Below, in pieces: positions 108 to 62,034 of a stretch of DNA of 64,000 nucleotides (within the stretch, counting starts at the first letter, position 1; each line of letters starts with the position of its first letter). The notes below the pieces were generated by a model. That model saw nothing but the letters and a program-made list of their open reading frames with translations, was not told the origin of the DNA and did not search any database. The stretch spans positions 27,466,001-27,530,000 of the forward strand of contig OZ024759.1 of NCBI GenBank assembly GCA_964016885.1, read 5' to 3'. Source of the DNA: Eledone cirrhosa. Taxonomy: Eukaryota. The position numbers and the translations under genes were made by a program.

Positions 108-1381
108 ACTTAATTACATAAATATTCCATATTAAAGTATAAATTCAAAACGAAAGAAAACATTATAATTATGAAATCTTAATAAATATAATTATTTCTT
201 TATAAACAATATAATACACCAAAAAATATACAATCAAAGCAAGAAAAAAACCTAATTAATTCTACAGTAAGTGTATCGATTTGTCACACACGACATGGGG
301 GTGTCGGAACCTCCCTTTAAATATTGTATAAAGTTAGACTGTACACATGCAAACGTGTCTTGTGAAAGTTGGAATAAAAATAAACTATATCTACAAATAG
401 AATTATTTCCAGGTTGCTGCTAGAATTACACGATCGATCGGGTTTATTAAAATATATTTCCATGCCTAATCAAATAGTTTCTTTTCTTTAAACACCACTT
501 GACTGAAATGTCAATAAACAAAGGAAAATGAAATTACAGAAATATATTTATGGATGTATCCGCATTCAATGTTCAATCGGAGGTAACCACAGTAAGTAAG
601 GTACTCAATACATAGAGTATAAATATTGAATATAGAAATGGCTTTTACAGGACTAGAACTGTTTCATTCGAAGGAAATCATCAGTATAATTCAAGTAAAA
701 AAGATATATGTATATATATAGAGAGAGAAAGGACCATATCTCCGTGAGAAAACACAATATATTGTATATATTTCAAAGAAAAACATGTATTTTAGATGGA
801 ATCAAAAAAGTTTCCTCTAGCGCTATTGAGCTGGTTGATTGAGAAGCACAGCGATCAAACATATTTGTTATGTTTTGATTATATATATATAAATATAAAT
901 ATATATATATAAACCAACGATTTCGTTTGGTCCGGGCTAAATTGTTTAATACTCGCACATAATCCCGAACTTGCCAATAATAACTAGATGAGTGCGCTTT
1001 GAATCACGGACTGGCACTTCGGAAATGCAAGTCCTGTGAAATCATCGAGCGAATTGTAAGATTTAACGTACTAGCAAAAAATCAGTTTGTCTAGTTCGAT
1101 ACATTTTATATATATATATAAACAAAGAATGTGTGGTAAGATACCAGGTCGACCTTAGCGCACCACAGTGATCGATACTTAGGGTAGTAGAGTGGGTAAC
1201 AGGAAAAGAATGAGGACCCCGACGGTTGAGCTCCGGCCGTTTCGACAGCTAGATCCGATCTCAGTCCGAAACGGGCGAAGCTCAGCCGTCGGGGTCCTGA
1301 CTTTTATTTTATATACATATATATATATATATATACGTTGGGTGTTGAAATACAGGTAAAATAAATAAAATATTTACTAAC

Positions 1382-3973: not shown

Positions 3974-4405
3974 CTGTAAAGTGGTAGTGCTGGTGATATG
4001 ACAAAAGCTTCCAGTACATGCTGTAAAGTGGTTGTGCTGGTGATAAGACAAAAGCTCCTAGTACATGCTGTAAAGTGGTAGCGCTGGTGATATGACAAAA
4101 GCTTCCAGTACATGCTGTAAAGTGGTAGTGCTGGTGATAAGACAAAAGCTCCTTGTATATGCTGTAAGGTGGTAGTGCTGGTGATATGACAAAAGCTTCC
4201 AGTACATGCTGTAAAGTGGTTGTGCTGGTGATAAGACAAAAGCTCCTAGTACATGCTGTAAAGTGGTAGCGCTGGTGATATGACAAAAGCTTCCAGTACA
4301 TGCTGTAAAGTGGTAGTGCTGGTGATAAGACAAAAGCTCCTTGTATATGCTGTAAGGTGGTAGTGCTGGTGATAAGACAAAAGCTCCCAGTACATGCTGT
4401 AAAGT
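3974..4405. repeat. 47-bp minisatellite, about 9 units, in a LRRIQ3 intron
   Basis: Unit CTGTAAAGTGGTAGTGCTGGTGATATGACAAAAGCTTCCAGTACATG. Confidence 0.95.
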
Positions 4406-21660: not shown

Positions 21661-22391
21661 GAGAGAGAGAGAGCATGATTGCGAGAGTGAGAGAGATTGC
21701 TAGAAAGAAAGATGGAAGAGAGAGAGAGAGAGCTGGAGGAGAGTGAGAGTACTGAAGTTAATATGTCTAACATAGACAGATGATATAGGTCAGAGTTATT
21801 GAGTTGTTAAATTGCCAGCCACTGCATCCATTCATATGCTGAACAAAATGGTAAAAGAAAACCTGCTGGTTCAGGGATTCATTATGTTGATCATCTGATG
21901 TATTTTAGGAACAGTACCGGACAGCCGGACAGGCAGCCAGCCACTCTCTTCCACACCCAACCCACCCTACATAGCCATGTCTGTAAAGGAAGCTGTGTTA
22001 GTTGATTATATATTTTGATCCAGAACATCATGAAGAACAATAATGTTTCTTCTCTGAAGATTCTAAGAGAAGATTACATATAATTGTTTCTGCTTTTTTT
22101 CACAAGGCCAGCAAATACCCCAGTGTATTACTGGTACTTTATTTTATCGACCCCGTAAGGATGAAAGGCAAAGTTAACCTCGGTGGGATTTTAACTCAGA
22201 CCATAAAGGGCCGTAAAGAGAAGATTACATATAATTGTTGCTACTTTTGGCACAAGGCCAGCAATTACCCAGTGCATTACTGGTACTTTATTTTATCGAC
22301 CCTGTAAGGATGAAAGGCAAAGTTAACCTCGGCGGGATTTGAACTTAGAATGCGTCAAAGCATGGCGTCCGACCCTCTATGTAATCATATA

Positions 22392-29544: not shown

Positions 29545-30860
29545 ACAGAGTGGACCAGGTGCTTTTTTATTATGGCGCCAGGTGCTTTTTAATGTGGCAC
29601 CAGCACTACCACTAAACAGAGTGGACCAGGTCTTTTTTTATTATGGCACCAGCACTACCACTATACAGAGTGGACCAGGTCCTTTTTAATGTGGCACCAG
29701 CACTACCACTATACAGAGTGGACCAGGTGCTTTTTAATGTGGCACCAGCAATACCACTATACAAAGTGGACCAGGTCCTTTTTAATGTGGCACCAGCAAT
29801 ACCACTATACAGAGTGGACCAGGTCCTTTTTAATGTGGCACCAGCAATACCACTAAACAGAGTGGATCAGGTCCTTTTTAATGTGGCACCAGCACTACCA
29901 CTATACAGAGTGGACCAGGTCCTTTTTAATGTGGCACCAGCAATACCACTAAACAGAATAGACCAGGTCCTTTTTAATGTGGCACCAGCAATACCACTAT
30001 ACAAAGTGGACCAGGTCCTTTTTAATGTGGCACCAGCAATACCACTAAACAGAGTGGACCAGGTCCTTTTTAATGTGGCACCAGCAATACTACTATACAG
30101 AGTGGACCAGGTCCTTTTTAATGTGGCACCAGCAATACCACTAAACAGAGTGGACCAGGTCCTTTTTAATGTGGCACCAGCACTACCACTATACAGAGTG
30201 GACCAGGTGCTTTTTAATGTGGCACCAGCACTACCACTAAACAGAGTGGACCAGGTCCTTTTTAATGTGGCACCAGCACTACCACTATACAGAGTGGACC
30301 AGGTCCTTTTTAATGTGGCACCAGCACTACCACTAAACAGAGTGGACCAGGTCCTTTTTAATGTGGCACCAGCACTACCACTAAACAGAGTGGACCAGGT
30401 CCTTTTTAATGTGGCACCAGCACTACCACTAAACAGAGTGGACCAGGTCCTTTTTAATGTGGCACCAGCACTACCACTAAACAGAGTGGACCAGGTCCTT
30501 TTTAATGTGGCACCAGCACTACCACTATACAGAGTGGACCAGGTCCTTTTTAATGTAGCACCAGCACTACCACTAAACAGAATAGACCAGGTGCTTTTTA
30601 ATGTGGCACCAGCACTACCACTAAACAGAGTAGACCAGGTCCTTTTTAATGTGGCACCAGCACTACCACTAAACAGAGTGGACCAGGTCCTTTTTAATGT
30701 GGCACCAGCACTACCATTATACAGAGTGGACCAGGTCCTTTTTAATGTAGCACCAGCAATAACACTTTACAGAGTGAACTAGGTGTTTTTTTTTATTATG
30801 GCGCCAACACTACCACTATACAGAGTGGACCTGGTGCTTCTCAATGTGACACCAGCAAGA
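29545..30860. repeat. 48-bp minisatellite, about 27 units (source of the 379-aa repetitive ORF)
   Basis: Unit GTGGCACCAGCACTACCACTATACAGAGTGGACCAGGTCCTTTTTAAT; reverse complement of the 4-5.5 kb family. Confidence 0.96.
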
Positions 30861-41829: not shown

Positions 41830-42116
41830 TTTCTTCATCCTCTTCTTCTACTACTTCTTCCACTTATTCCTGAGAGGGTCGTGGGGGCAGCATCCTCAAA
41901 CACGCCTGCCAGTGGGTCCTGTCAAAGGCATCCATCTCCAATTGTTCTGGCTGGATCCACAAGCGAGACTTGCTGAGCTCATGGATGTTATCCGACCATC
42001 TTGCTCGGGATATACGCATGGGTCTCTTGCCAGTTGGTTTTGTCATAAAATCTGTCAAGTGATTCTTTCCTGAGACATTCTAACCACATATCCATAGTAA
42101 TCGGAGTGGTGACATC
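41830..42116 (-). mobile_element. 3' end of a second RTE LINE family (other fragments at about 2990-3455, 10205-10385, 10878-10940 and 26320-26830)
   Basis: KPTGKRPMRISRARWSDNI...DRTHWQACLRMLPPRPSQE* followed by a GAA-rich tail; typical RTE ORF2 terminus. Confidence 0.85.
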
Positions 42117-45100
42117 TCAATTCAGAGAAGTAGTGGCTCTACCTGGAGCGACTCCAGTGATTCTTTCCTGAGACATTCTAACCCCATGTCTGTAATATCT
42201 GAGTTGTGATCTCCCAATTTGGAGAAGTAGCTGCTCTACCTGGAGTGACTCCAGTGATTCTTTCCTGAAACATTCTAACCCCATGTCTGTAATATCTGAG
42301 TTGTGATCTCTCAATTTGGAGAAGTAGCTGCTCTACCTGGAGTGACTCCAGTGATTCTTTCCTGAGACATTCTAACCCCATGTCTGTAATATCTGAGTTG
42401 TGATCTCCCAATTTGGAGAAGTAGCTGCTCTACCTGGAGTGACTCCAGTGATTCTTTCCTGAGACATTCTAACCCCATGTCTGTAATATCTGAGTTGTGA
42501 TCTCCCAATTTGGAGAAGTAGTGGCTCTACCTGGAGTGACTCCAGTGATTCTTTCCTGAGACATTCTAACCCCATGTCTGTAATATCTGAGTTGTGATCT
42601 CCCAATTTGGAGAAGTAGCTGCTCTACCTGGAGTGACTCCAGTGATTCTTTCCTGAGACATTCTAACCCCATGTCTGTAATATCTGAGTTGTGATCTCCC
42701 AATTTGGAGAAGTAGCTGCTCTATCTGGAGTGACTCCAGTGATTCTTTCCTGAGACATTCTAACCCCATGTCTGTAATATCTGAGTTGTGATCTCCCAAT
42801 TTGGAGAAGTAGCTGCTCTACCTGGAGTGACTCCAGTGATTCTTTCCTGAGACATTCTAACCCCATGTCTGTAATATCTGAGTTGTGATCTCCCAATTTG
42901 GAGAAGTAGTGGCTCTACCTGGAGTGACTCCAGTGATTCTTTCCTGAGACATTCTAACCCCATGTCTGTAATATCTGAGTTGTGATCTCCCAATTTGGAG
43001 AAGTAGCTGCTCTACCTGGAGTGACTCCAGTGATTCTTTCCTGAGACATTCTAACCCCATGTCTGTAATATCTGAGTTGTGATCTCCCAATTTGGAGAAG
43101 TAGCTGCTCTACCTGGAGTGACTCCAGTGATTCTTTCCTGAGACATTCTAACCCCATGTCTGTAATATCTGAGTTGTGATCTCCCAATTTGGAGAAGTAG
43201 CTGCTCTACCTGGAGTGACTCCAGTGATTCTTTCCTGAGACATTCTAACCCCATGTCTGTAATATCTGAGTTGTGATCTCCCAATTTGGAGAAGTAGTGG
43301 CTCTACCTGGAGTGACTCCAGTGATTCTTTCCTGAGACATTCTAACCCCATGTCTGTAATATCTGAGTTGTGATCTCCCAATTTGGAGAAGTAGCTGCTC
43401 TACCTGGAGTGACTCCAGTGATTCTTTCCTGAGACATTCTAACCCCATGTCTGTAATATCTGAGTTGTGATCTCCCAATTTGGAGAAGTAGCTGCTCTAC
43501 CTGGAGTGACTCCAGTGATTCTTTCCCGAGACATTCTAACCCCATGTCTGTAATATCTGAGTTGTGATCTCCCAATTTGGAGAAGTAGCTGCTCTACCTG
43601 GAGTGACTCCAGTGATTCTTTCCTGAAACATTCTAACCCCATGTCTGTAATATCTGAGTTGTGATCTCCCAATTTGGAGAAGTAGCTGCTCTACCTGGAG
43701 TGACTCCAGTGATTCTTTCCTGAGACATTCTAACCCCATGTCTATAATATCTGAGTTGTGATCTCCCAATCTGGAGAAGTAGCTGCTCTACCTGGAGTGA
43801 CTCCAGTGATTCTTTCCTGAGACATTCTAACCCCATGTCTGTAATATCTGAGTTGTGATCTCCCAATTTGGAGAAGTAGTGGCTCTACCTGGAGTGACTC
43901 CAGTGATTCTTTCCTGAGACATTCTAACCCCATGTCTGTAATATCTGAGTTGTGATCTCCCAATTTGGAGAAGTAGCTGCTCTACCTGGAGTGACTCCAG
44001 TGATTCTTTCCTGAGACATTCTAACCCCATGTCTGTAATATCTGAGTTGTGATCTCCCAATTTGGAGAAGTAGCTGCTCTACCTGGAGTGACTCCAGTGA
44101 TTCTTTCCTGAGACATTCTAACCCCATGTCTGTAATATCTGAGTTGTGATCTCCCAATTTGGAGAAGTAGCTGCTCTACCTGGAGTGACTCCAGTGATTC
44201 TTTCCTGAGACATTCTAACCCCATGTCTGTAATATCTGAGTTGTGATCTCCCAATTTGGAGAAGTAGCTGCTCTACCTGGAGTGACTCCAGTGATTCTTT
44301 CCTGAGACATTCTAACCCCATGTCTGTAATATCTGAGTTGTGATCTCCCAATTTGGAGAAGTAGCTGCTCTACCTGGAGTGACTCCAGTGATTCTTTCCT
44401 GAGACATTCTAACCCCATGTCTGTAATATCTGAGTTGTGATCTCCCAATTTGGAGAAGTAGCTGCTCTACCTGGAGTGACTCCAGTGATTCTTTCCTGAG
44501 ACATTCTAACCCCATGTCTGTAATATCTGAGTTGTGATCTCCCAATTTGGAGAAGTAGCTGCTCTACCTGGAGTGACTCCAGTGATTCTTTCCTGAGACA
44601 TTCTAACCCCATGTCTGTAATATCTGAGTTGTGATCTCCCAATTTGGAGAAGTAGCTGCTCTACCTGGAGTGACTCCAGTGATTCTTTCCTGAGACATTC
44701 TAACCCCATGTCTGTAATATCTGAGTTGTGATCTCCCAATTTGGAGAAGTAGCTGCTCTACCTGGAGTGGCTCCAGTGATTCTTTCCTGAGACATTCTAA
44801 CCCCATGTCTGTAATATCTGAGTTGTGATCTCCCAATTTGGAGAAGTAGCTGCTCTACCTGGAGTGACTCCAGTGATTCTTTCCTGAGACATTCTAACCC
44901 CATGTCTGTAATATCTGAGTTGTGATCTCCCAATTTGGAGAAGTAGTGGCTCTACCTGGAGTGACTCCAGTGATTCTTTCCTGAGACATTCTAACCCCAT
45001 GTCTGTAATATCTGAGTTGTGATCTCCCAATTTGGAGAAGTAGCTGCTCTACCTGGAGTGACTCCAGTGATTCTTTCCTGAGACATTCTAACCCCATGTC

Positions 45101-45875
45101 TGTAATATCTGAGTTGTGATCTCCCAATTTGGAGAAGTAGCTGCTCTACCTGGAGTGACTCCAGTGATTCTTTCCTGAGACATTCTAACCCCATGTCTGT
45201 AATATCTGAGTTGTGATCTCCCAATTTGGAGAAGTAGCTGCTCTACCTGGAGTGACTCCAGTGATTCTTTCCCGAGACATTCTAACCCCATGTCTGTAAT
45301 ATCTGAGTTGTGATCTCCCAATTTGGAGAAGTAGCTGCTCTACCTGGAGTGACTCCAGTGATTCTTTCCTGAAACATTCTAACCCCATGTCTGTAATATC
45401 TGAGTTGTGATCTCCCAATTTGGAGAAGTAGCTGCTCTACCTGGAGTGACTCCAGTGATTCTTTCCTGAAACATTCTAACCCCATGTCTGTAATATCTGA
45501 GTTGTGATCTCCCAATTTGGAGAAGTAGTGGCTCTACCTGGAGTGACTCCTGTGATTCTTTCCTGAAACATTCTAACCCCATGTCTGTAATATCTAAGCT
45601 GTGATCTCTCAATTTGGAGAAGTAGCTGCTCTACCTGGAGTGACGCTCCAGTGATTCTTTCCTGAGACATTCTAACCCCATGTCTGTAATATCTGAGTTG
45701 TGATCTCCCAATTTGGAGAAGTAGCTGCTCTACCTGGAGCGACTCCAGTGATTCTTTCCTGAGACATTCTAACCATATGTCCGTATTATCAGAACTGTTA
45801 TCTCTCAATTCAGAGAAGTAATAGCTCTGATTGGAGTGACTCTTGCAATTCTTTCCTGAGACATTCTAACCCTAT
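42060..45875. repeat. 97-bp tandem satellite, about 39 highly similar units, derived from RTE ORF2
   Basis: Unit GTGATTCTTTCCTGAGACATTCTAACCCCATGTCTGTAATATCTGAGTTGTGATCTCCCAATTTGGAGAAGTAGCTGCTCTACCTGGAGTGACTCCA. ORF-track entries recur every 97 bp. Confidence 0.97.
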
Positions 45876-46923
45876 GCCCATGCAAGGAGACCAAGGACAC
45901 TTAAGGTCTCAACTGTACAGTTTATTTTTACTACTGGATATTTTCTATTGCAAAACAGAATAAGTAAAATTAAACCATATTAGGAGAGGTTGGCCATAGT
46001 AAAGTATTTTAGTAATACTGGTTTTAGATTGAGGCACAAGGCCAGCAAGTTTGGGGAGAAGAAAGTTGATTAAACCAACCCCAGTGCATTACTGGTGCTT
46101 TATTTTATCAACCCCGTAAAAATGAAAGGCAAAGCTAACCTTGGCAGGATTTGAACTCAGAACAAAAAGGGCTGTAACTCTATGCTGCAAAGCAAGGTGT
46201 CCGGCGCTCTACCAATTCTGCCAATCCACCACCCTGTGTTTTAGCAATACAAACTAATTTTTTTAACCATGATTGTCTACACCCTCCATTCGGCCTCCCA
46301 TTGGTAACATGGGTGTATTGGAAACAGGGAAGAATTTTTTTTTGGGGGGGGGGGGGGGGGGGATAAAATTGCAAATATGGTTTATCAAAACATGAAGTAT
46401 TATGTTTAATAAATAGTGATTTTATAATTAGATCAAAAAATAAAAAATGAGCACAAATTATTTATTACATGAGAGGGAGATGATTATATATTTAAATGTG
46501 TCATGGGAAATACGGATTAAATAATTTAGTCCTATCTTAAAGATATACACTTCCTGTAAAAACAATAGGAAAGAAAAAAAATAAGGTTGATGTTGAGCTG
46601 GTTAAAATACACCTTGATCATATATATATATACAAGGTAAAAAGCAAGTAAGCTATATATATATATATATGTGTCAATGACACAACAGACCACACTGTAA
46701 GGTGGCCGTGTATGAGACACGGTGAAAAGGCTCCCAGTCCACACTGTAAATGTGGTTGGTGTTAGGAAGGGCATCCAGCTGTAAAAAAACTGGCAAGAGA
46801 CGCTTCCGTGCGAGCGAGACATGGTCTCTCGACCATTCCTGTATCAAATGGAACAAAACTGTCTAACCCATGCTAGCATGGAAGATGGACGTTAAACGAC
46901 AATGATGATGATATATATATATC

Positions 46924-49553: not shown

Positions 49554-49583
49554 GGGTTAGGGTTAGGGTTAGGGTTAGGGTTA
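49554..49583 (+). repeat. Short interstitial telomere-like repeat (GGGTTA)5
   Basis: GGGTTAGGGTTAGGGTTAGGGTTAGGGTTA. Confidence 0.85.
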
Positions 49584-49722
49584 AATATTAATTTGATTAA
49601 AACAACTGGAGGTTTGACTAGAGGTATCCTATATAGAAAAAGTACTCTTCCATATGGAACTCATCCATTTTGGCCACTTGTTGCTTTAATAAAATTATAT
49701 ATATATATATATATATAATATA

Positions 49723-49781
49723 GAAGAGCTTCTACAGGACTAGAACTGTTTCATTCATGAGAAATCATCAGGAAGCTCTTC
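49723..49781 (-). ncRNA. Type I hammerhead ribozyme motif (second copy on the plus strand at 49778-49824)
   Basis: GAAGAGCUUC-CUGAUGA-UUUC(UCAU)GAAU-GAA-ACAG(UUCUAGUC)CUGU-A/GAAGCUCUUC: full core, 10-bp stem I, 4-bp stem III, GUA site. Stem II is weak and closed by U.U. Confidence 0.7.
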
Positions 49782-49907
49782 CTGATGATTTCTCACTAAT
49801 GAAACAGTTCTAGTCCTGTAGAAGCTCTTCTATACTAAAACTTTTTTACTCTGCTATGTATTGAGTACCTTACTTACTGTGGTTACCTCCGATTCAACCC
49901 AGAATAA

Positions 49908-49964
<57 letters not shown>

Positions 49965-57992: not shown

Positions 57993-58315
57993 ATATATAT
58001 ATATATTTTATTCTTTCTCTTAGACTTCAGGTATTTTTTGAAAGCTAAACATTGGCCCCTGCAATGCTACCGTGGGACCTCTGGGGCCCACTTGCCATTG
58101 GACAACCTGGCCAGTCCGCCACTGTACTCTACTATGTATTGAGTACCTTACTTACTGTGGTTACCCCTGATTGAACCCGAAACACACACACATTTTATAT
58201 ATATAGGAAAACGCTTAACCCCGACGGCAGAACTCAAGCCGTTTTATTAGTCTCCAAATTCCAGATCCATCTCACCGTTTTCCTCAGAAACAATGTATAT
58301 ATGTATCGCTCTCTC

Positions 58316-61391: not shown

Positions 61392-62034
61392 CCATTTGTA
61401 TATATAATCGGTGGATTCCCGATGTATATCGGGAGGTAGGTGATCACAGTCTAAAAAAATAAAAGTACTCAATACGTTAGGAGTATAGGCATCTTTATTT
61501 ATTATAGAGAACTCACTTCTGCAGGATTAGAACTGTTTCATTCGTAATAAATCATCAGGAAATCTCTGATGATTTCTTACGAATGAAACAGTTCTTGGCC
61601 TGTAGAAGTCGTTTCAATAAGAATAATAATTGTTTCTACTTTTGGCACAAGGCCAGCAATTTTGGGAGAGGGTAAAGTCGATTAAAACGACCCCAGTGTA
61701 TTACTGGTACTTTATTTTATCGACCTCGTCAGGATGAAAGGCAAGCCTTATCCCCGGCAACAAAATTTATATATATGTGTGTGTTGTTCATAATTGCTTT
61801 TCTAAACTAGTTGATATGTTTCTCTGCCCTTGGGGGAAGGGGTATGATGTGTCAACACTATCCCCCACCTCAGTCCACTCCCCGAAGGCAGGGCGCGGAT
61901 GTCTCTTGTATTTTGTTGATGGTGGTGGTGGTGTGTGTTGTTTTCTAGTTGTTTGTGTGTGTGTGTGTGTGTGTCCTGGTCTTGTATGTTCCAGGGCAAA
62001 TTCATATGGGGTCAGACTTATTATCTATCACTAG

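What the first reader, a model, noticed from the sequence alone, without database searches (positions are those of the whole stretch)
49718..49905. Back-to-back double hammerhead ribozyme cassette in a (TA)n tract
Seen: a palindrome of about 115 bp with a hammerhead core on each strand. The minus copy reads GAAGAGCUUC-CUGAUGA-stem II-GAAA-CAG(loop)CUGU-A/GAAGCUCUUC, with predicted cleavage after the A opposite 49733. The plus copy would cleave after 49820. A tail CTATGTATTGAGTACCTTACTTACTGTGGTTACC follows and recurs at 575-620 (minus) and 58132-58170. The same core is at 641-684 (minus) and, again as an inverted pair, at 61505-61615. Loop II differs between copies (UCAU, CUUC, UUAC) while the UUUC/GAAU stem is kept, as expected if structure is selected. 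Established: Penelope-like retroelements carry type I hammerheads in their pseudo-LTRs and often leave inverted termini, and non-coding hammerhead-bearing retrozymes exist in metazoans. Inference: a tiny non-autonomous self-cleaving retroelement family that could cut a transcript from either strand. Caveats: stem II is closed by U.U instead of R-Y, and the full palindrome competes with ribozyme folding.
Basis: partly seen in the sequence, partly recalled or inferred. Interest (0 to 1): 0.85.

Follow-up and report, generated by a model that had tools for sequence, protein, structure and literature searches.

The report
Back-to-back Penelope retroelement ribozyme stub
This palindrome is one of thousands of stubs left by a known kind of jumping gene (Hydra-type Penelope element) whose end carries a predicted self-cutting RNA; it is not a separate two-way ribozyme device, but the fixed meeting point of its two arms likely marks where the element's RNA starts.

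Summary
The palindrome and hammerhead cores are real. They are the terminal repeat (pLTR) of a Hydra-clade Penelope-like retroelement. The core has 24,101 exact matches in the genome. It flanks an intact 713-aa TERT-like RT/GIY-YIG ORF with the Hydra motifs in 3 of 20 long loci, and the window's own subfamily precedes the same ORF. Back-to-back pairs are the family's routine product: 4,108 have spacers of 0-14 nt, and 89 of 100 sampled carry the tail on one arm only, as here. The U.U stem II is common in published Hydra hammerheads. The window's plus copy is damaged, and the full hairpin (-94 kcal/mol) outweighs the ribozyme fold (-17). The less ordinary part is that arms stop at helix I's first base, about 30 nt below a TATA box, usually with one extra base (27 of 29), the signature of a capped RNA start. 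Intron-less copies exist. Both point to sense-RNA templates. Cleavage and start site are untested. The scan noted similar run-off ends earlier in other genomes.

The parts
49695..49719 (.). left (TA)n target microsatellite
   Evidence: 149 of 200 sampled arm ends abut a TA run
49716..49777 (-). inverted short arm: helix I 5' strand, hammerhead core 49733-49771, about 17 nt past the predicted cut site, no tail
   Evidence: 98% identical over 62 nt to subfamily B pLTR copy L011
49733..49771 (-). type I hammerhead core (CUGAUGA, U.U-closed 3-bp stem II, GAAA, 4-bp helix III with 8-nt loop, GUA); folds with helices I and III as a monomer
   Evidence: (z -2.8)
49772..49781 (.). head-to-head junction; the minus arm ends exactly at the first base of native helix I (predicted RNA start), and the next base fits either an added cap-type base or the start of the plus arm
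49778..49911 (+). long arm: 4 nt of helix I, damaged hammerhead core 49782-49820 (stem II C.U), then 92 nt past the cut site including the tail
   Evidence: 95% identical to the ORF-linked subfamily B copy L091
49854..49911 (+). one-sided pLTR tail, which in full elements runs on into the ORF (ATG 136 nt after the cut site)
49911..49959 (.). right (TA)n target microsatellite
542..684 (-). older relative: single hammerhead plus tail (GAAGCC-type helix I, 5' strand lost)
58125..58205 (+). tail-only fragment of the same pLTR
61505..61615 (.). older, decayed back-to-back pair of the same family

Best explanation
The palindrome is two short copies of the hammerhead-bearing end of a Hydra-clade Penelope-like retroelement joined head to head in a (TA)n tract, likely made when the element's enzyme cut both target strands and copied the sense RNA from two internal start points back to the RNA's predicted capped first base. 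Shown: family membership, the ORF link, one-sided tails, clustering of junctions at helix I, the extra base, and spliced copies. Inferred: (1) a TATA promoter inside the retained intron starts the RNA at the first base of helix I; (2) RT starts about 15-24 or about 90 nt past the cut site (as PAc does at two sites in vitro, PMC11167929) on uncleaved RNA; (3) the two run-off cDNAs are joined 3' to 3' by end joining, often with microhomology or short templated bits. The hammerhead is a passenger here; in the parent RNA it would remove the capped first 45 nt or process tandem precursors, probably weakly or with protein help. The window locus itself is likely inert.
For: 24,101 core matches, control 0. 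HHR-tail-ORF-intron-TATA-HHR-tail architecture with an intact 713-aa ORF in L131, L139, L143, 3 of 20 long loci; window subfamily ahead of the same ORF in L091. ORF fold is TERT-like (pLDDT 93, top Foldseek hit TERT, E 1.6e-8) with Hydra motifs. Pairs by spacer: 0-14 nt 4,108; 15-44 nt 1,012; 45-74 nt 155. In the 100 sampled pairs only 10 of 200 arms carry 8 or more native bases upstream of C3. One tail only in 89 of 100 pairs; arm ends peak at 15-24 nt (86 of 200) and 85-94 nt (61 of 200) past the cut site. TATA lies 35-37 nt before C3 in 36 of 43 stored copies that had a TATA match within 45 nt, i.e. 29-30 nt before helix I. Non-native extra C (cDNA sense) in 27 of 29 arms ending at helix I in non-overlapping pairs; C also follows in 12 of 22 and 12 of 30 arms of the GGCUUUC and GGCUUC subfamilies, where fold-back would add A or T (hand counts). 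An extra G marks capped full-length L1 insertions (PMC11702581, passage). 13 matches to the exact GT-AG spliced form. A 310-nt tandem ribozyme repeat with the same stem II shows no junction at its helix I start (2 true loci with spacers up to 35 nt; 11,684 monomers).
Against: No RNA data: the start site, cap and cleavage are inferred from DNA only. In overlapping short pairs the extra C is seen in only 3 of 7 arms, and in subfamilies A and B the same C could come from a 1-nt fold-back on helix I (second base also fits fold-back in 13 of 27). Many arms stop one base short (61 of 200) or shorter. The predicted start, the helix I edge and the intron acceptor lie within 2 nt of each other, so they are hard to separate. 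The tandem-repeat control is a different element with a different helix I. At the window junction the extra C is ambiguous. 9 of 100 pairs had no tail detected and 2 had two. Clade placement rests on motifs and fold, not on a tree with reference Hydra sequences.
Confidence: 0.85

Rival explanations
1. Same element, but the palindrome comes from self-priming (fold-back) of one strand, for instance on an antisense template as proposed by Arkhipova et al. 2013, or from trimming of a cDNA flap back to the helix I hairpin; the junction then marks RNA or DNA structure, not a capped start.
For: PMC3846280 (passages) reads junction palindromes this way. Both arms share the subfamily in 66 of 69 and loop II in 85 of 100 pairs. 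In subfamilies A and B the extra C equals the first fold-back base, and 4 arms match fold-back for 3-4 nt. The window junction reads as a 4-nt fold-back equally well.
Against: Fold-back match stops at 1 base in 14 and at 2 bases in 11 of 29 arms. C is also the commonest added base where fold-back predicts A or T. Spliced copies need a sense template at least sometimes. Simple fold-back does not explain two different, fixed outer ends.
Confidence: 0.2
2. One reading: an independent tiny non-autonomous element (retrozyme-like) whose two ribozymes cut transcripts from either strand and which moves as a palindromic unit.
For: Thousands of such pairs exist, far more than ORF copies (read depth on the hammerhead-tail is about 1,000 times that on the ORF in contigs of run X1; a rough measure). 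A true tandem retrozyme with the same stem II exists in this genome.
Against: The sequence is the pLTR of an autonomous element. Spacers are heterogeneous. No tandem monomers here. The plus ribozyme is damaged and the hairpin is about 78 kcal/mol more stable than the ribozyme fold. The stubs lack the TATA box.
Confidence: 0.05
3. The hammerhead of this family is no longer catalytic and is kept only as part of a protein-binding or promoter signal.
For: Stem II is only 3 bp behind U.U; metazoan PLE hammerheads cleave poorly in vitro (PMC4209133); PAc hammerhead mutants do not affect insertion and no RNA reads ended at its cut site (PMC11167929). All sampled insertions span the cut site, so uncleaved RNA was copied. 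The tail is as conserved as the ribozyme between subfamilies (75 of 80 vs 47 of 51).
Against: All 4 differences between subfamilies A and B fall in loop II or are a compensatory pair in helix I; helix I has double changes at 3 pairs in a 12-row alignment (rows are related, so about 2 events). Core positions vary less than the upstream body among 29 copies picked on the body alone (5 of 377 vs 535 of 12,181; p 0.002; not corrected for base composition).
Confidence: 0.2

Closest known systems
Hydra clade of C-terminal EN+ Penelope-like elements (Craig et al. 2021, PMC8557442; sections 11 and 15, passages, and supplement part 2 with Files S1/S2 seen), e.g. Penelope-n_HM, Hydra-1_Ajap, Hydra-1_Obim
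   Same: Single RT + GIY-YIG ORF, RWK-type and DKT motifs, CxCX5C linker, CxxC and CxH around the conserved E and N, no CCHH, (TA)n targets, type I hammerhead; many listed Hydra hammerheads read ctgatgat ... tgaa, the same U.U closure.
   Different: Hammerhead differs from the listed Hydra-1_oBim motif, so a different family; 8-nt loop III versus 1-3 nt; unit about 5.4 kb rather than under 3 kb because of a 2.5-3.2 kb microsatellite intron; very high copy number with near-identical intact copies.
Inverted 5'-truncated pLTR with one-sided tail in EN+ PLE insertions (PMC3846280 passages; PMC8557442 Fig. 2 legend; close opposite-strand hammerhead pairs in PMC4209133, parts 1-2 of 4 read)
   Same: Head-to-head inverted copy, tail at one end only, palindrome at the junction.
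   Different: Here the commonest product is the minimal one, both arms stopping at helix I; tail about 70 nt rather than 30-40; an extra cap-type base at the junction is not mentioned in the passages I read.
PAc (Poseidon, Anolis) in vitro system (Frangieh et al. 2024, PMC11167929; parts 1-2 of 4 read)
   Same: Two internal RT start sites downstream of the hammerhead give the tail; both target strands are cut and extended; uncleaved RNA is the substrate.
   Different: Different clade; here both ends lie upstream of the ATG, and the evidence is genomic only.
Drosophila virilis Penelope pLTR (as described in PMC4209133 and PMC8557442)
   Same: Retained intron overlapping the internal promoter, with its 3' end at the 5' strand of helix I, so that splicing changes helix I.
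   Different: The intron here is kilobases of TA/TG microsatellite.
Metazoan non-LTR retrozymes (bioRxiv 10.64898/2026.07.22.740005, part 1 of 5 read; PMC7229834 search listing only)
   Same: Type I hammerhead, Penelope connection.
   Different: No tandem monomers; the sequence is colinear with an autonomous element's pLTR.

Membership tests
Hydra-clade PLE | Single ORF with TERT-like RT and C-terminal GIY-YIG endonuclease | tested here: met
   713-aa ORF; model pLDDT 93, top hits TERT; Y587/Y602/G604/R613/H617/E672/N685 invariant or nearly so in 100 rows; Pfam GIY-YIG only sub-threshold
Hydra-clade PLE | N-terminal RWK motif and DKT in place of DKG | tested here: met
   RWR at 38 (conservative variant), DKT at 116; RW[KR] in 113 and DK[TS] in 120 of 120 homologues
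Hydra-clade PLE | CxCX5C linker; CxxC and CxH either side of conserved E and N | tested here: met
   C566/C568/C574, C666/C669, C694/H696 conserved in 99-100 of 100 rows
Hydra-clade PLE | CCHH motif absent | tested here: met
   The two Cys inside this GIY-YIG core are present in only 9 and 1 of 100 rows
Hydra-clade PLE | (TA)n insertion preference and hammerhead in the pLTR | tested here: met
   149 of 200 arm ends at TA runs; hammerhead on both sides of the ORF
Hydra-clade PLE | Short element, generally under 3 kb | tested here: not met
   About 5.4 kb between hammerheads because of the intron; a descriptive trait, and the spliced form would be about 2.4 kb
Hydra-clade PLE | Phylogenetic grouping with reference Hydra RTs | not tested
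   No reference Hydra protein was available as a stored sequence
Type I hammerhead ribozyme | Core C3-U4-G5-A6-N7-G8-A9, G12-A13-A14, A15.1-U16.1, H17 | tested here: met
Type I hammerhead ribozyme | Three helices with covariation | tested here: inconclusive
   Helix I co-varies (3 pairs with double changes, 0 of 500 shuffles; hand-picked related rows); helices II and III do not co-vary in this set
Type I hammerhead ribozyme | R10.1-Y11.1 pair closing stem II | tested here: not met
   U10.1.U11.1; a described natural variant (PMC3088659 passage; Hydra File S2)
Type I hammerhead ribozyme | Self-cleavage after NUH | not testable with these tools
   needs in vitro transcription
Non-LTR retrozyme | Tandem hammerhead monomers without a coding parent | tested here: not met
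   No tandem array at the locus; colinear with an ORF-bearing element
Non-LTR retrozyme | Circular RNA intermediate | not testable with these tools
   No RNA run listed

The most novel reading that the evidence does not exclude
Thousands of minimal palindromes record the Penelope insertion reaction in vivo: both target strands are primed on sense RNA at two fixed sites, copied to a capped start at the first base of hammerhead helix I, and joined 3' to 3'. This would settle the sense versus antisense template question raised in 2013, place the ribozyme at the very 5' end of the mRNA where it could decap it, and give a young Hydra-clade element with intact ORFs for testing, one that also spreads a 3-kb microsatellite intron.
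Probability: 0.6. Interest if true: 0.6.

Novelty: new member of a known kind. Interest (0 to 1): 0.38.

Why it matters
As a locus it is ordinary debris. As a family it is useful: how Penelope-like elements make inverted ends and what their hammerheads do are stated open questions (PMC8557442 section 15; PMC3846280 discussion). Here the junction statistics give a sharp prediction (capped start at helix I, extra base only on capped templates), and near-identical intact copies make a Hydra-clade test feasible. Two searches found no paper describing a cap signature at PLE junctions, but most subscription papers are not searched. Each full copy also carries about 3 kb of TA/TG microsatellite, which may feed the microsatellite load of this genome.

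Tried and rejected
Rfam scans gave only miRNA-hairpin noise and a sub-threshold HH10 hit. Pfam did not name the RT, NCBIfam and PDB sequence searches found nothing useful; a single-sequence fold failed (pLDDT 32) and was repeated with an alignment. No RNA holder listed, which says nothing on expression; contigs laid cannot show RNA ends. tblastn found no ORF remnant in the window. I first read the upstream body as an ORF-less element; rejected once the microsatellite intron was crossed. I first took the GGACTA-type pairs as a fourth subfamily; they are a separate 310-nt tandem repeat, and they contribute to the 45-74 nt count (11 of the first 50 loci, hand count). AGCT self-complementarity as the cause of the junction was rejected because subfamily A, which lacks it, joins at the same place. 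Counts of stem and core conservation from pattern-selected copies are circular and were not used; the body-selected set was. Solo 5'-truncated copies were too few to test for the extra base. The 100 sampled pairs are the first 50 listed on contig C1 for each of two spacer classes, so long spacers are over-represented, and a few may be segmental duplicates. Supplements of the bioRxiv retrozyme preprint and of PMC11167929 were not seen and may bear on novelty.

Full report
Observation. The palindrome runs 49720-49833 between two (TA)n tracts, with 52 of 54 arm positions complementary. A relaxed type I hammerhead pattern matches four times in the window against 0.05 expected. The minus copy folds with helices I and III as a monomer (z -2.8); the plus copy does not (z +0.47), because it keeps 4 bp of helix I and has a C.U mismatch in stem II. 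On the whole palindrome the long hairpin scores -94.2 kcal/mol against -16.6 for the hammerhead fold.

What family. The plus arm has at least 40 genomic matches at 95% or better, and the core with a free 4-nt loop has 24,101 exact matches, control 0. Copies that are not inverted continue upstream into a TATA-containing body and some continue downstream, 136 nt after the cut site, into an ORF. The window's subfamily (loop UCAC, helix I AGCUUC/GAAGCU) precedes a decayed copy of this ORF in L091, 95% identical to the window arm. A sister subfamily is very young: 22 of the 40 best hits to 401 bp of its endonuclease end reach the top score, and 3 of 20 long loci hold an intact 713-aa ORF. The layout is hammerhead, tail, ORF, 2.5-3.2 kb GT-AG stretch of TA/TG microsatellite, TATA, hammerhead, tail. 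The protein model is confident (pLDDT 93) and its best structural match is telomerase RT. RWR, DKT, CxCX5C, CxxC and CxH are present and CCHH is not conserved, which are the marks given for the Hydra clade (PMC8557442 section 11). No tree with reference sequences was built. The host looks like an octopod cephalopod from its repeat content (recalled) and from other notes of the scan; I did not test this.

The ribozyme. All core nucleotides are present. Between subfamilies A and B the 51-nt motif differs at 4 positions, two in loop II and one compensatory pair in helix I, while the 39 nt upstream match at only 27. A third type has GGCUUC/GAAGCC; helix I co-varies in a hand-picked 12-row alignment, though this reflects about two events. 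Among 29 copies chosen on the upstream body, core positions differ at 5 of 377 cells against 535 of 12,181 in the body (no composition correction). The U.U closure of stem II is shared by many published Hydra-clade hammerheads (File S2) and was reported as a natural, tolerated variant (PMC3088659). Activity is untested; metazoan PLE hammerheads are weak or protein-assisted in vitro.

The palindrome. Inverted 5' copies with a one-sided tail are the described PLE pattern. Here the back-to-back form is the routine product: 4,108 loci with spacers of 0-14 nt, 1,012 with 15-44, 155 with 45-74 (the last includes another repeat). In 100 sampled pairs, 89 have the tail on exactly one arm, 9 on none, 2 on both. 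Outer ends peak 15-24 and 85-94 nt past the cut site; the window's arms end at 17 and 92. This matches the two RT start sites and double-strand cutting shown for PAc.

The junction. Only 10 of 200 arms keep 8 or more native bases upstream of C3; 100 keep 5 or 6. That point is the first base of helix I and lies 29-30 nt below a TATA box (TATA to start spacing is from my own knowledge). Of 29 arms that end at that base in non-overlapping pairs, 27 add a non-native C on the cDNA strand; in overlapping pairs 3 of 7 do. In subfamilies A and B a 1-nt fold-back on helix I would add the same C, and the second base fits fold-back in 13 of 27. In the GGCUUUC and GGCUUC subfamilies fold-back would add A or T, yet C follows in 12 of 22 and 12 of 30 arms, and the same C-W-G spacer recurs in all three types (hand counts). 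An extra G at the 5' junction is the mark of cap copying in full-length L1 insertions (PMC11702581). A 310-nt tandem ribozyme repeat with the same stem II has no junctions at its helix I start, an imperfect control. At the window's own junction the minus arm ends at this base, and the next C fits a cap base, a fold-back or the start of the plus arm equally.

The intron. The microsatellite stretch begins with GT about 100 nt after the stop codon and ends with AG inside the 5' strand of helix I. Thirteen matches show the exact spliced join, several continuing into the ORF end. So sense RNA is a template at least sometimes, retention is the rule, and splicing would shorten helix I from 6 to 4 bp, as described for D. 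virilis Penelope.

Mechanism and verdict. Most likely the enzyme cuts both strands of a (TA)n site, primes two cDNAs on uncleaved sense RNA at the two tail sites near its 5' end, runs off at the capped start, and the two 3' ends are joined. Family, layout and end statistics are shown; promoter use, cap, priming and cleavage are inferred. The antisense self-priming idea of PMC3846280 remains a rival. The locus is a new member of a known kind and probably inert; the family's junction record makes an open mechanistic question testable. I reached the run-off reading, before seeing that the scan had noted similar ends in other genomes; those notes are unchecked and are not counted as support.

Noticed in passing
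L125-L144, e.g. L143:3479-6465: Full copies carry a 2.5-3.2 kb GT-AG intron made mostly of TA/TG microsatellite, shared between copies; the element may be a source of such tracts genome-wide.
   Followed up: partly
L257-L300 (e.g. G000:C1:1239881-1244260): A 310/311-nt tandem hammerhead repeat (11,684 monomer matches) in head-to-head arrays shares the UUUC...GAAU stem II and core with this family; possibly a retrozyme derived from or moved by it. Other notes of the scan describe what seems to be the same repeat.
   Followed up: partly
L076, L083, L084: Another hammerhead repeat (AAUAUUG/AAUAUUC-type helix I), two copies 466 bp apart in L083.
   Followed up: no
L087 minus, about 1583: A different minimal hammerhead plus tail directly abutting a truncated copy of this family.
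   Followed up: no
L042 minus: 369-aa frame of another, diverged YRDD reverse transcriptase of the same kind, so several Hydra-like families coexist.
   Followed up: no
L224, L211: Some junctions hold a third partial hammerhead or short templated snippets, and a few pairs join arms of different subfamilies (3 of 69), which would need two template RNAs.
   Followed up: no
window 49554-49583: Short interstitial (TTAGGG)n run about 140 bp left of the insertion.
   Followed up: no
window 42058-45876 and 29578-30857: Homogeneous tandem arrays (97 bp x 39, 48 bp x 27).
   Followed up: no
window 61633-61765 and 22065-22349: Abundant SINE-like repeat next to the second palindrome (recalled as an octopus SINE; not tested).
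   Followed up: no
run X5, organism B: Contigs of a second organism cover the pLTR body and hammerhead, including an opposite-strand joint, so the family is not confined to one species.
   Followed up: no
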